A stretch of DNA of 64,000 bases, taken from positions 4,780 to 68,779 of the IMG/VR virus record IMGVR_UViG_3300015242_000024. The stretch is one strand, 5' to 3'. The translations under genes were made by a program, and so were the position numbers. How positions within the stretch are numbered: position 1 is the stretch's first letter; every line of letters begins with the position of its first letter. The notes beneath the pieces were generated by a model. That model did no database searches and had not been told where the DNA came from. It saw nothing but the letters and a program-made list of their open reading frames with translations. Positions 45,905 to 48,578 of this stretch are shown here, one piece after another. The DNA comes from a virus.

Positions 45905-46345
45905 TTGGCTGTTTCAAGTTTTAAGGATGTTAATTGGGGTGCCAATGAGTATCTAGCAACTGACAAGTTGATGACTATGGTCAACAATACTCGTTACCTC
46001 TTTGAGCGGGCTCCGAAGTTGTATTACAACTCGTATTCGCTGAAGAAGGATAGCGGTATTAAGATTGCCTGTGGTACAGCTACAATTGCTCCGGGAAAGG
46101 CTCACTACTACACAAAGAACATTATGTTTGGTTCTTTCTTTACAGTTGGGTCTAAGCCAGTAATTGTTACAAGCGTTACCTCTCCATATAACCGAAGAAT
46201 GATTCTTTCGCATTGGGGAATTCAAGGTACTGGATATGTTCCAGACCATAGAGGCTTTACCGTATGTGCAGCTACGGCTACACTAGAGAAGTCTCACTAC
46301 TTGTCTAAGCAGATTTACATCAACTGGATTGCGATGGGATACTAA
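45905..46345 (+). CDS. H-type-lectin-like fibre tip protein (putative)
   Basis: F...F...PVIV...GFTV...INWIAMG pattern. Confidence 0.55.
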   Translation: MAVSSFKDVNWGANEYLATDKLMTMVNNTRYLFERAPKLYYNSYSLKKDSGIKIACGTATIAPGKAHYYTKNIMFGSFFTVGSKPVIVTSVTSPYNRRMILSHWGIQGTGYVPDHRGFTVCAATATLEKSHYLSKQIYINWIAMGY

Positions 46346-46363
46346 TTGGAAGGAGGCGTGTCT

Positions 46364-46645
46364 ATGAGGTACATTCCACTACAGAAGTGGCATAGACGCG
46401 ACCGACGCCTTAACCCTAATGGATACATTCTGGTCTGGGTACCAGAGCATCCAAAGAGTTTTTCGGGCGGGTGGTATTACGAACATAGACTTGCAGCCGA
46501 GAAGGGTGTAGGAAGAATCCTGAAGTCTTGGGAGACGGTACATCATATCTCTGGAGATAAGACGGATAATTCATGGTGGAACTTGTTCGTATGCACGCGC
46601 AAGGAGCATGACCGTGCTGATAGATTGACACTGAAAGTAGCCTGA
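46364..46645 (+). CDS. HNH endonuclease
   Basis: YEHRL...VHHISGDKTDNSWWNL..EH. Confidence 0.8.
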   Translation: MRYIPLQKWHRRDRRLNPNGYILVWVPEHPKSFSGGWYYEHRLAAEKGVGRILKSWETVHHISGDKTDNSWWNLFVCTRKEHDRADRLTLKVA

Positions 46646-46659
46646 GTTATACTGAGATA

Positions 46660-47310
46660 ATGAAGAAGGCGCTTATCGCGATAGGACTGGCGCTGCTGGT
46701 CCTATTCGCATTTCCGAGTAGTGCTCAAGCCCAAGAGTGTGAATCTTCCACTTTGGGTCAAATCTGTGTCAGTCTATCAGGTAACGATGTTGTTGTAACC
46801 CTTCTTGGTCAGGAGCTAGTAAGAATTCCTGCTCCAATTAAGGAAGTCAGAATTCAGGTTCCAGGACCGACCGTTACGATTCAGGGTCCAACAATCAGAG
46901 TGCCTGTTCCTGGTCCAACAAGAACTGTTGAGGTTCCTGGTGTAGGTGTTCCAGGGCCAACCGTTACGGTCACAGTTCGTCCAGGTGGACAGAACCGGGC
47001 TCCAGGTGTTACAGTAGAACCATCAAGCTCTTCAACAAAAACCGGCGGGGCGCGAACAGTGTCTCCTACAATCACAGAGAACGTGACTGCTACTCCTGCT
47101 GCAAAGGTACGGGTAGAAGAAAAGGAAGTGCGAGTCAGTGTCCCCCAAGCAATTGGATTCTCCATTGGCGTATTTTTGCTGGGTGTAATCCTAGGTCTCC
47201 TAGCTATCTTTGCTGCTTACACTGTAGGGTACAAGAACTCAGAGCAGTCAGAACTGAAGACTTGGGAAGCTTTCCGCAACGAAATTCTCGGCGGAACACG
47301 TAAGCATTGA
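46660..47310 (+). CDS. secreted, membrane-anchored Pro/Thr/Val-rich protein
   Basis: Signal peptide, VPGPT repeats, C-terminal TM. Confidence 0.75.
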   Translation: MKKALIAIGLALLVLFAFPSSAQAQECESSTLGQICVSLSGNDVVVTLLGQELVRIPAPIKEVRIQVPGPTVTIQGPTIRVPVPGPTRTVEVPGVGVPGPTVTVTVRPGGQNRAPGVTVEPSSSSTKTGGARTVSPTITENVTATPAAKVRVEEKEVRVSVPQAIGFSIGVFLLGVILGLLAIFAAYTVGYKNSEQSELKTWEAFRNEILGGTRKH

Positions 47311-47329
47311 CTATTTGGAGGTGATGCAA

Positions 47330-48169
47330 ATGAGCGACCCTAACATGATTAAATGGGCGTTTGTTTGAGTAGGCGACTTGCAGATTCCTTATCATGATAA
47401 GAGGGCACTCGCACTTTTCATGAAGGCTATGAAGTCTTGGAAGCCTGACGCAATGGACATTACTGGTGATATTGATGACCAGCTAGAGTACAGTTCATTC
47501 TCAGATGGAACTACAGATGAATTCTTCAATCAGCTAAAGAAAGAGAAGCAGGCAGAAGGCGAGTCGGACGAAGAGTTTCGTCGTAGGCTTTCCCCTCTTC
47601 CCTTTGTGAAGGAGAATGCTCTAGGAGCACGAGCGTTTTATACAGACCTTAGAAGCAATCATAAGAATTGCGATATCCATGTAAGTCTAGGAAATCATGA
47701 TATTCGGATTTTCAAGTATATGGATAAGAAGGCTCCTGGATATATTGACGAGATTACACCAAATATGCTGTGGGGTTTGGATGACCTAGGAATTTCCTGG
47801 AGACTCTATGACCTTCCTCCGATGGAAAGATTCGGCGGGATTCATGTACATCATGGAGCGACGACAACAACGACTGGTCTAGCCGTAAAGGCAGACATCG
47901 ACAACTACAATATCTCGCTCGCACGTGGTCATGACCATAGAGGCGGTGTAGTATTTAAGTCTTACCCTATGACTGGTGCAACGCTAGTTGGTCTAGGCAC
48001 TGGACATATGTGTGACCCGAATGCCTACGGGCTAAGGTACACAATCAACCCTTCATGGGAACTTGGATTCGGAATTGGGCATGTCGTAAATGGCATTGCT
48101 CGACTCCAATTCGTTCCTATCACTCCTGATTACACTTGTGTAGTCGATGGAAAGATTTTCCAGGGCTGA
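47330..48169 (+). CDS. calcineurin-like metallophosphoesterase with in-frame TGA at 47366-47368
   Basis: GDLQ, GDIDD, GNHD, HHG and GHDH motifs; GGAGGTG RBS precedes 47324/47330; the first motif is interrupted. Confidence 0.75.
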
Positions 48170-48233
48170 TTGCGCTTAGGAAGGCAAGCCTGCTATAATG
48201 GGCGTAGATGAATGTAAAGGAGGTATAACCTAT

Positions 48234-48578
48234 ATGGCTTATGCCAAGTCTCTATTTGCAGTTCTAGCCACCGTGGTTACTGCAATTGTTGCTGCTATGA
48301 CAGACAACGTTGTTAGTAACGTAGAGTGGATTAACGTAGGAATTGCTGCTGCTGGTGCTGCTGCTGTTTTTGCAGCCCCTAACGTTCCAGGTTCACGTTA
48401 CACAAAGGCAGTTCTTGCTGTTATCACTACAGTTCTGACTTTCTTCGTAACCGCTGTAACGGATGGCGTTTCAACTGCTGAGTTGCTTCAGGTTCTTGTT
48501 ATTGCGCTCGGTGCTGTTGGTGTTTATGCTGTGCCTAACAAGCCAGCCAACACGATTGGCGCACCTGGTGTACTGTAA
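48234..48578 (+). CDS. holin (putative)
   Basis: Internally duplicated two-TM unit ending VFAAPN/VYAVPN; AAGGAGGT RBS. Confidence 0.7.
   Translation: MAYAKSLFAVLATVVTAIVAAMTDNVVSNVEWINVGIAAAGAAAVFAAPNVPGSRYTKAVLAVITTVLTFFVTAVTDGVSTAELLQVLVIALGAVGVYAVPNKPANTIGAPGVL

What the first reader, a model, noticed from the sequence alone, without database searches (positions are those of the whole stretch)
47317..47380. Val-UGA-Val inside the first catalytic strand of the metallophosphoesterase: candidate ribosomal stop-hop
Seen: a strong GGAGGTG RBS, then ATG AGC GAC CCT AAC ATG ATT AAA TGG GCG TTT GTT TGA GTA GGC GAC TTG CAG, in frame with the otherwise intact 263-codon ORF. The track's TTG start (47378) lies after the metal-binding Asp and has no RBS, so it would give a dead enzyme. 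Removing exactly 6 nt gives KWAFVGDLQ, which matches the usual K-hhhh-(S/G)-D spacing of calcineurin-like enzymes. Simple read-through would leave two extra residues. The stop is flanked by synonymous Val codons (GUU, GUA) readable by one tRNA. Established: stop-hopping between matched codons occurs in E. coli constructs, T4 gene 60 uses bypassing, and bypassing has been proposed for some Streptomyces phage genes. Inference: programmed minimal bypass that limits or conditions expression. Alternatives are UGA read-through, a recent inactivating insertion, or a sequencing error.
Basis: partly seen in the sequence, partly recalled or inferred. Interest (0 to 1): 0.75.

Follow-up and report, generated by a model that had tools for sequence, protein, structure and literature searches.

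The report
Retained in-frame stop in phage phosphoesterase
A soil phage's phosphoesterase gene carries six extra bases with a stop codon just before its first metal-binding residue, yet the gene is still kept intact by selection, so ribosomes probably get past the stop by hopping over it or reading through it.

Summary
ATG 47330 follows a 9-nt Shine-Dalgarno match and is in frame with GTT(47363) TGA(47366) GTA(47369) GGC GAC TTG(47378).

- **Not an artefact:** contigs from three other soil runs in two other studies span the site with 0 gaps. X2 and X3 are identical to the window over 47281-47415.
- **Lineage-specific:** 0 of 19 IMG/VR relatives and 0 of 3 GenBank relatives inspected carry the insert. 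All read KW.F.GDLQ.
- **Still under selection:** window versus X2 differs by 18 synonymous and 1 non-synonymous change in the ORF.
- **Only real gene with an internal stop** when compared with relative G001.
- **Start signals:** ATG 47330 has the longest anti-SD match of 54 starts; TTG 47378 has only AGG.
- **Hairpin:** a lineage-specific hairpin ends at the stop.

So sequencing error is excluded and a private dead gene is unlikely. The enzyme most likely needs recoding at the UGA. I cannot separate a Val-to-Val 6-nt stop-hop (about 0.38) from UGA read-through (about 0.25). A young pseudogene (0.17) and restart at TTG (0.12) remain possible.

This scan has noted similar short stop-led gaps in phage phosphoesterase genes on other DNA. 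Those are unchecked AI notes.

The parts
47317..47325 (+). Shine-Dalgarno GGAGGTGAT, lying in a lineage-specific insertion of about 23 nt
   Evidence: It is the longest anti-SD match among the 54 candidate starts of the window (rank 1, 9 nt). The closest clade lacks it and starts at a TTG that overlaps the upstream stop.
47330..47332 (+). ATG start of the full-length phosphoesterase reading frame (MSD...)
   Evidence: It is in frame with the ORF. ATG AGC GAC matches the TTG AGC GAC start of the closest relatives L005-L009.
47327..47367 (+). Predicted 13-bp RNA hairpin. The 5' arm holds the AUG. The 3' arm holds the take-off GUU and the UG of UGA.
   Evidence: Energy is -14.3 kcal/mol, z = -4.04, and 1 of 200 shuffles folds as well. 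None of 19 relatives reaches it; their best is -10.2. However, 2.45% of 7,843 42-nt windows of this phage are as stable. I chose the boundaries after seeing a wider fold.
47363..47365 (+). GTT, Val, candidate take-off codon
47366..47368 (+). In-frame TGA
   Evidence: It is present in X1, X2 and X3.
47369..47371 (+). GTA, Val, candidate landing codon. The 6-nt excess lies within 47363-47371.
   Evidence: Megablast matches to all 28 related phage records begin at 47369 or 47375.
47372..47377 (+). GGC GAC, the invariant Gly-Asp of the first metal-binding motif (GDLQ.P)
   Evidence: G10, D11, L12, Q13 and P15 are invariant across the 19 sequences of alignment A1.
47378..48169 (+). Rest of the phosphoesterase ORF. 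As annotated, it starts at TTG.
   Evidence: PHROG 221 metallo-phosphoesterase, E = 2.8e-56. There are 18 synonymous and 1 non-synonymous change against X2/X3. It has 1 private change at otherwise invariant columns.
46346..46645 (+). HNH endonuclease gene about 0.7 kb upstream
   Evidence: Pfam HNH_3, E = 2.9e-11. An HNH gene sits at the same place in relatives without the insert. A link to the insert is therefore not shown.
46660..47310 (+). 216-aa Pro-rich membrane or secreted protein gene between the HNH and phosphoesterase genes
   Evidence: A 229-aa gene with similar N- and C-terminal sequence lies at the same place in G001. No Pfam or PHROG hit.

Best explanation
The phosphoesterase gene is alive. 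It carries a fixed 6-nt insert with a UGA between the first beta-strand (KWAFV) and the invariant Gly-Asp.

Proposed mechanism:
1. Ribosomes start at ATG 47330 behind the strongest Shine-Dalgarno sequence of the window and translate 12 codons.
2. They stall with peptidyl-tRNA-Val on GUU and UGA in the A site.
3. In a minority of ribosomes the Val-tRNA unpairs and re-pairs with GUA six bases on. This tRNA is probably a phage tRNA-Val with anticodon UAC, which would pair weakly with GUU and fully with GUA.
4. Decoding resumes at GGC GAC and gives the exact family sequence KWAFVGDLQ.

The other ribosomes terminate. The strong initiation signal would make up for the low yield.

Shown here: the insert is real and shared by three haplotypes. 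The ORF is under strong purifying selection. The start signal and the matched codons are present.

Inferred: the hop itself, its efficiency, the tRNA involved and any role of the hairpin.
For: 1. The insert and TGA are real and occur in runs of three studies.
2. The ORF has 18 synonymous and 1 non-synonymous change between two insert-bearing haplotypes, over 175 synonymous and 614 non-synonymous sites. That is pN/pS of about 0.016. X4's protein differs by 1 residue. The window has 1 private change at otherwise invariant columns, within the 0-10 range of the relatives.
3. The identical tract around the insert in X2/X3 is at most 135 nt, which is no longer than other gaps between differences. 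A recent patch transfer of the insert is therefore unlikely.
4. ATG 47330 ranks 1 of 54 starts for anti-SD match. TTG 47378 has only AGG.
5. The flanking codons GTT and GTA are both Val. The closest complete relative, G001, encodes a single tRNA-Val with anticodon UAC among its 33 tRNAs.
6. No sense-codon version of the two-codon insert exists: 0 IMG/VR contigs, against 23 with the uninserted pattern. JGI metagenomes gave 1 chance hit. None of 124 homologous proteins has one. Despite three haplotypes, no TGA-to-sense change is seen. Together with the very strong SD, this fits a +2-residue product that is not good enough and a stop that is needed to trigger the hop. This last step is inference.
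7. A lineage-specific hairpin ends at the take-off codon.
8. Stop-hops over matched codons are established in E. coli constructs, and short bypassing has experimental support for Streptomyces phage Hau3 (passages of PMC5009743 and PMC10732093).
Against: - The gap is in frame, so read-through explains the same data, and UGA is the leakiest stop.
- Only one shallow lineage (about 1.6% divergence) carries the insert. There is no covariation and no conservation of the stop beyond what chance retention allows: about 0.3 changes are expected in 3 nt.
- Matched Val codons have a chance probability of roughly 0.07-0.16.
- The hairpin's energy is reached by 2.45% of windows, and its boundaries were chosen after the fact. 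Its 3' arm would lie inside the ribosome at take-off. It also buries the AUG, so it may simply regulate initiation.
- There is no 3' take-off stem-loop: z = -0.25 and -0.61.
- The phage's own tRNA genes lie beyond the contig end, so the Val-tRNA argument rests on a relative whose phosphoesterase is 87% identical in protein.
- The synonymous differences could have been imported by recombination from unsampled intact genes.
- No RNA or protein data exist.
- According to PMC5009743 (passage), no natural in-frame stop-hop was known in 2016, so the prior is low.
Confidence: 0.38

Rival explanations
1. UGA read-through. A near-cognate tRNA, most likely tRNA-Trp CCA, decodes UGA 47366 in a few percent of ribosomes. 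The product is KWAFV-W-VGDLQ, an enzyme with two extra residues at the end of the first beta-strand that still works.
For: The insert is in frame and the stop is UGA. A two-residue insert keeps the in/out register of a strand. AlphaFold2 models residues 2-9 (IKWAFVWV) as one continuous strand, with block pLDDT 75. Relative G001 encodes its own tRNA-Trp CCA, with a U11:A24 pair and an A31/C39 mismatch by my reading. Altered tRNA-Trp stems can raise UGA reading (PMC13092985, sections 17 and 20 read). The selection and SD evidence fits this as well as it fits the hop.
Against: No UCA suppressor is among the 33 tRNAs of G001. TGA ends 13 of 30 long ORFs, and TGAG ends 4 of those 13, so neither the codon nor its context is special here. 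No sense version of the insert is found anywhere, and no TGA-to-sense change has appeared, although one step would raise the yield greatly. In PMC13092985 the effective change is at the top pair 27:43, not at 31:39. The model is of low confidence overall (mean pLDDT 68.6).
Confidence: 0.25
2. Young pseudogene. The insert killed the gene recently. It is carried along by a successful phage lineage or was passed between haplotypes by recombination. The clean ORF reflects selection that acted before the insert, or in donor genes.
For: The insert is confined to one lineage about 1.6% diverged. This lineage's N-terminus has several other indels. Phage genomes are mosaic, and X4 shares only part of X2's variants.
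Against: Three haplotypes share the insert. The ratio of 18 synonymous to 1 non-synonymous change compares with about 15 non-synonymous changes expected among 19 under neutrality. The identical tract is at most 135 nt. There is no other stop or frameshift in 263 codons, and all invariant residues are kept. A newly acquired, strongest-in-window SD in front of a dead gene would go unexplained. The closest insert-free relative in the collections searched is only about 75-79% identical in DNA by megablast.
Confidence: 0.17
3. Termination-reinitiation. The 12-codon leader is translated from the strong SD. Ribosomes terminate at UGA and restart at TTG 47378. The selected product is an N-terminally shortened protein without the first strand and Asp.
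For: TTG lies 9 nt after the stop. Of the 23 sequences read at this Leu position, only the window has TTG, but TTG makes up 16% of the phage's Leu codons. The strong SD would also serve coupling. Gene callers chose this start.
Against: The product would lack the first strand and the invariant G-D of motif I. By established knowledge of the calcineurin-like fold, that Asp is a metal ligand. All other catalytic motifs (GDIDD, GNHD, HHG, GHDH) stay under selection, which is hard to explain for a dead enzyme. Only AGG serves as an SD.
Confidence: 0.12
4. Sequencing or assembly artefact.
For: The window is a metagenome-derived contig, 53% complete.
Against: An independent assembly of the probable source run and contigs of three other runs from two other studies all carry the 6 nt, with 0 gaps.
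Confidence: 0.01

Closest known systems
Synthetic 'stop-hops' in E. coli (Weiss et al. 1987, as described in passages of PMC5009743)
   Same: Matched synonymous codons flank a stop, so that 9 nt would specify one amino acid. The A-site codon is slow to decode.
   Different: Those are laboratory constructs of low efficiency. This is a natural gene under selection in a phage related to Streptomyces phages. No product has been measured. PMC5009743 states that no natural in-frame stop-hop was known.
Phage T4 gene 60 50-nt bypass and the MobA cassette (bioRxiv 10.1101/2022.08.31.505936, passages)
   Same: A take-off codon is followed by a stop, with a matching landing codon. An upstream stem-loop exists and an HNH gene is nearby.
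   Different: The gap is 6 nt, not 50 nt (20 nt in one clade). There is no take-off stem-loop 3' of the codon. The nascent chain is only 12 residues at take-off, so a gene 60-type peptide signal cannot act. The HNH gene is also present in relatives without the gap.
Proposed UUA-triggered 10-nt bypass in the terminase of Streptomyces phage Hau3 (PMC10732093, abstract and passages)
   Same: The host group is the same. It is a short gap after a slow A-site codon in a phage gene, and a 5' stem-loop is proposed as a stimulator.
   Different: The trigger there is the rare UUA codon and the gap shifts the frame. Here the trigger is a stop and the gap is in frame. This phage has no TTA at all in 14,498 codons.
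Natural UGA read-through by tRNA-Trp (recalled examples: the Q-beta A1 protein; low-level UGA-as-Trp in Bacillus subtilis)
   Same: An in-frame UGA is followed by a selected ORF.
   Different: Known cases extend a C-terminus. This one would sit at codon 13, inside a catalytic-core strand, and add two residues.

Membership tests
Calcineurin-like metallophosphoesterase superfamily | Sequence-profile match to the family | tested here: met
   PHROG 221 'metallo-phosphoesterase', E = 2.8e-56. Pfam gave no hit at E <= 0.01 for this protein. Two homologues carry a precomputed PF00149 hit.
Calcineurin-like metallophosphoesterase superfamily | Conserved metal-binding motifs (D-x-H/Q, GDxxD, GNH[DE], H, GHxH; the motif list is recalled) | tested here: met
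   GDLQ, GDIDD, GNHD, HHG and GHDH are invariant in alignment A1. The first motif is reached only if the UGA is passed.
Calcineurin-like metallophosphoesterase superfamily | Fold | tested here: inconclusive
   AlphaFold2 mean pLDDT 68.6, pTM 0.74. Foldseek gave no match at E <= 0.001. The best rows are SbcD (7dog_A, E = 2e-3, prob 0.98), LpxH and Vps29, all phosphoesterases. A PDB sequence-profile search gave 0 hits.
Stop-hop (matched-codon bypass over a stop) | Take-off and landing codons readable by one tRNA, flanking a stop | tested here: met
   GUU UGA GUA. The only tRNA-Val in the closest complete relative has anticodon UAC. This phage's own tRNA genes are not on the contig.
Stop-hop (matched-codon bypass over a stop) | Protein product lacking the residues of the gap | not testable with these tools
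   Needs mass spectrometry. No RNA holder was listed either.
Stop-hop (matched-codon bypass over a stop) | Gap kept in diverged relatives while the gene stays intact | tested here: inconclusive
   The gap is kept in three haplotypes about 1.6% apart, with 18:1 synonymous:non-synonymous changes. It is absent from all diverged relatives: 0 of 19 and 0 of 3. Pattern scans found none.
T4 gene 60-type programmed bypass | Take-off stem-loop with the take-off codon in its 5' side | tested here: not met
   Folds of 47345-47400 and 47360-47420 gave z = -0.25 and -0.61.
T4 gene 60-type programmed bypass | Nascent-peptide signal in the exit tunnel | tested here: not met
   Only 12 residues have been made at take-off.
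T4 gene 60-type programmed bypass | Gap arrives together with a homing endonuclease | tested here: inconclusive
   The HNH gene at 46346-46645 has a counterpart in relatives that lack the gap.
Programmed UGA read-through | Dedicated suppressor tRNA or a leaky context | tested here: not met
   None of the 33 tRNAs of relative G001 has anticodon UCA. TGAG ends 4 of 13 TGA-terminated long ORFs. There is no downstream structure. This phage's own tRNA set is unseen.

The most novel reading that the evidence does not exclude
This would be a natural, selected 6-nt 'stop-hop'. Peptidyl-tRNA-Val(UAC), supplied by the phage, leaves GUU when UGA enters the A site and lands on GUA, rebuilding the metal-binding motif exactly. 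The stop is kept by selection because it triggers the hop. The insert itself may be kept at the DNA level, for example as protection of this highly conserved motif-coding stretch against cleavage by a homing endonuclease of competing phages. The very strong SD pays for the low yield. Dependence on a phage tRNA would make expression conditional on the stage of infection.
Probability: 0.3. Interest if true: 0.85.

Novelty: new variant of a known kind. Interest (0 to 1): 0.62.

Why it matters
In-frame stop-hopping has been shown only in synthetic E. coli constructs. A 2016 review (PMC5009743, passage read) says no natural case was known. It also says some apparent read-through might really be hopping.

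This locus is a compact natural test case. It has 9 nt in a selected enzyme gene, and the two products differ by two residues, so one mass-spectrometry experiment decides between them.

It also warns annotators. The deposited TTG start gives a protein that lacks its first strand and metal-binding Asp. Gene callers on four assemblies made the same or a shorter call.

If the hop depends on a phage-encoded tRNA, it would be a new way for large tRNA-rich actinophages to time or limit expression.

Tried and rejected
**General TGA recoding: rejected.** TGA ends 13 of 30 long ORFs. The ORF map has no other gene broken by a stop. In a tblastn of G001's 76 conserved stop-to-stop ORFs, 44 had no stop, 15 had one and 17 had several. 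The multi-stop hits were not inspected one by one; I took them for antisense or alternative-frame shadows. Of the four + strand single-stop hits, two stops lie at index 2, upstream of the start. One is a 50%-identity alternative frame. Only the phosphoesterase has conserved residues on both sides of its stop.

**Frameshifting: rejected by reading the sequence.** The +1 frame hits TAG after one codon. The other frame stops after 10 codons.

**Selenocysteine and a 3' stimulatory structure:** no structure was found downstream.

**Pattern scans for the same or any two-codon insert:**
- Viral contigs gave 0 and 0.
- Metagenome contigs gave 1 hit, L024, which is a chance match in non-homologous DNA.

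**Other searches that led nowhere:**
- Rfam on the window found only 3 tRNAs.
- The 4.8 kb of G000 outside the window has no tRNA.
- A PDB sequence-profile search gave 0 hits.
- No RNA holder was listed for the stretch, so expression could not be examined.
- tblastn of the N-terminally short homologue P0035 against phage records did not find its source (best 83%). I could not see whether P0035, P0045, P0078 or P0118 hide other interruptions.
- A literature search for bypassing + phosphoesterase + homing endonuclease + phage returned 0 papers. 'stop-hop' returned 3 papers, one of them relevant. Supplements were not opened.

**Not run:** the second fold job, complex prediction, the search of protein representatives and the protein-atlas search. 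They would not separate the readings.

Full report
**What is there.**
The window is 64 kb of a 68,779-bp metagenome-derived virus record, 53% complete. It is related to the large, tRNA-rich Streptomyces siphoviruses of the Loccivirinae. A 1.7-kb query around the site matched 28 phage records, all Streptomyces phages, at 75-79% identity. The window has 46.7% G+C.

At 47317-47325 lies GGAGGTGAT. The sequence then reads ATG (47330) AGC GAC CCT AAC ATG ATT AAA TGG GCG TTT GTT TGA GTA GGC GAC TTG CAG. The TGA is at 47366-47368. Everything is in frame with the 263-codon ORF 47378-48169. The protein matches PHROG 221, metallo-phosphoesterase (E = 2.8e-56). It keeps GDLQ, GDIDD, GNHD, HHG and GHDH.

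**The six bases are an insert.**
- Three GenBank relatives read MKWA[FL][VI][GS]DLQIPYHD.
- All 19 IMG/VR relatives read KW.F.GDLQ without a stop.
- Of 124 stored homologues, 104 have the W-x3-GD spacing and none has two extra residues.
- All 28 megablast matches begin at 47369 or 47375, right after the TGA.
- ATG AGC GAC corresponds to the TTG AGC GAC start of the closest clade.

So 47330-47365 is the ancestral 5' end of the gene.

**It is real and not private.**
Logan contigs of four runs were laid on 46300-48300.
- The probable source run X1 reproduces 47072-47853 without any difference.
- X2 and X3 (study P2) and X4 (study P3) span the whole stretch with 0 gaps and 32, 32 and 35 substitutions.
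- All 32 differences of X2/X3 are listed and none lies in 47281-47415. The SD, ATG, hairpin, TGA and landing codon are therefore identical there.
- For X4, 13 differences were not printed. However, the gene call on a contig of the same length starts at the same TTG (P0001). That start is expected only if the stop persists.

**The gene is under selection with the stop in place.**
- Window versus X2/X3 shows 19 changes in the ORF: 18 synonymous and 1 non-synonymous (D135N), over 175 synonymous and 614 non-synonymous sites.
- X4's protein differs by one residue.
- The window has one private change (Y to F) at columns otherwise invariant in 18 relatives, within their range of 0-10.
- The tract around the insert that is identical in X2/X3 is at most 135 nt. 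That is no longer than other spacings between differences. A recent patch transfer of the insert is therefore unlikely.

One caveat is that the synonymous differences could have been imported from unsampled intact genes.

**It is a single site, not a code change.**
TGA ends 13 of 30 long ORFs, and TGAG ends 4 of those 13. Against the ORFs of the closest complete relative G001, the phosphoesterase is the only real gene with a stop flanked by conserved residues.

**Signals around the stop.**
- ATG 47330 has the longest anti-SD match of 54 candidate starts. TTG 47378 has AGG only.
- The SD lies in an insertion of about 23 nt that is absent from the closest clade. In that clade the gene starts at a TTG overlapping the upstream stop.
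- Positions 47327-47367 fold into a 13-bp hairpin (-14.3 kcal/mol, z = -4.04). Its 5' arm holds the AUG and its 3' arm ends in GUU-UG.
- None of 19 relatives has an equally stable fold at this place, but 2.45% of all 42-nt windows of the phage do. I chose the boundaries after seeing the fold.
- Nothing significant folds downstream.

**tRNAs.**
The contig ends before the tRNA cluster. G001's phosphoesterase is 87% identical in protein. It has 33 tRNA genes and none has anticodon UCA. It has one tRNA-Val (UAC) and one tRNA-Trp (CCA).

**How it most likely works.**
Selection on the ORF, the invariant G-D just after the stop and the new strong start all say that ribosomes starting at 47330 must pass the UGA.

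Frameshifts are unproductive. A restart at TTG would drop the first strand and the Asp.

Two routes remain, a GUU-to-GUA hop or UGA read-through. I rank the hop slightly higher for three reasons:
- the flanking codons match;
- no sense version of the insert exists anywhere;
- a very strong SD combined with a retained stop suggests that more protein is wanted, yet a one-step TGA-to-sense change has not been taken. That fits a +2 product that is inferior and a stop that is needed as the trigger.

This is inference. The time depth is shallow, and UGA plus an in-frame gap suit read-through equally well. AlphaFold2 models the +2 form with one continuous first strand (low confidence).

**Comparison with what is known.**
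Passages of PMC5009743 describe synthetic stop-hops and state that no natural in-frame stop-hop was known. PMC10732093 gives experimental support for short bypassing in Streptomyces phage Hau3.

The site lacks the T4 gene 60 take-off stem-loop and peptide signal. The nearby HNH gene is also present in relatives without the gap.

Earlier notes of this scan describe short stop-led gaps behind hairpins in phage phosphoesterase genes on other DNA. They made me test for a hairpin and for an HNH link here. They are not counted as evidence.

**Verdict.**
This is a real, retained in-frame stop in a selected gene and a good candidate for natural recoding. The mechanism is unresolved between hop and read-through, and one mass-spectrometry experiment would settle it.

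Noticed in passing
window, 30 long + strand ORFs (9448-63651): TTA is absent: 0 of 956 Leu codons in 14,498 codons, although the genome has only 46.7% G+C. This fits a Streptomyces host in which the UUA-reading tRNA is developmentally limited. That host property is recalled knowledge and is also described in the abstract of PMC10732093.
   Followed up: partly
L043:1210-1281 (relative G001): The phage-encoded tRNA-Trp (CCA) has, by my reading of the sequence, a U11:A24 pair and an A31/C39 mismatch at the bottom of the anticodon stem. U11:A24 is the pair of the E. coli Hirsh UGA suppressor, which is recalled. Whether it reads UGA is untested.
   Followed up: partly
L025:1585-1880 (relative G001): A phage-encoded tmRNA with an unusual tag peptide sits inside the tRNA cluster. 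This is known for cluster BE phages (abstract of PMC5764925, search listing).
   Followed up: no
L046:1501-1571 (relative G001): An Rfam tRNA hit (53.7 bits) was missed by ARAGORN. By eye it is a tRNA-Gly (UCC) with an odd T loop.
   Followed up: partly
window 46660-47310: A 216-aa protein with a signal-like N-terminus, Pro-rich VPGPT repeats and a C-terminal membrane segment. It has no Pfam or PHROG hit. It changes faster than its neighbours, with 5 synonymous and 3 non-synonymous changes against X2.
   Followed up: no
proteins P0035, P0045, P0078, P0118: These homologues were called with N-termini that start after or at motif I (MKWWKPD..., MKAMKTW..., MKVAKSW..., MVGDLQ...). They may be contig ends, or they may be further interrupted genes.
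   Followed up: partly
window 46903-47030 and 47824-47938: The probable source run holds second, lower-depth contig variants (5 and 7 differences). Some are shared with X2, which indicates at least two co-occurring strains.
   Followed up: no
window 47311-47351: Besides the 6-nt insert, this lineage's 5' end differs from the closest clade by an insertion of about 23 nt that creates the SD and ATG, and by 9 extra bases (SD-PNMI-KW against SD-M/F-KW). Several of these insertions supply bases of the hairpin.
   Followed up: partly
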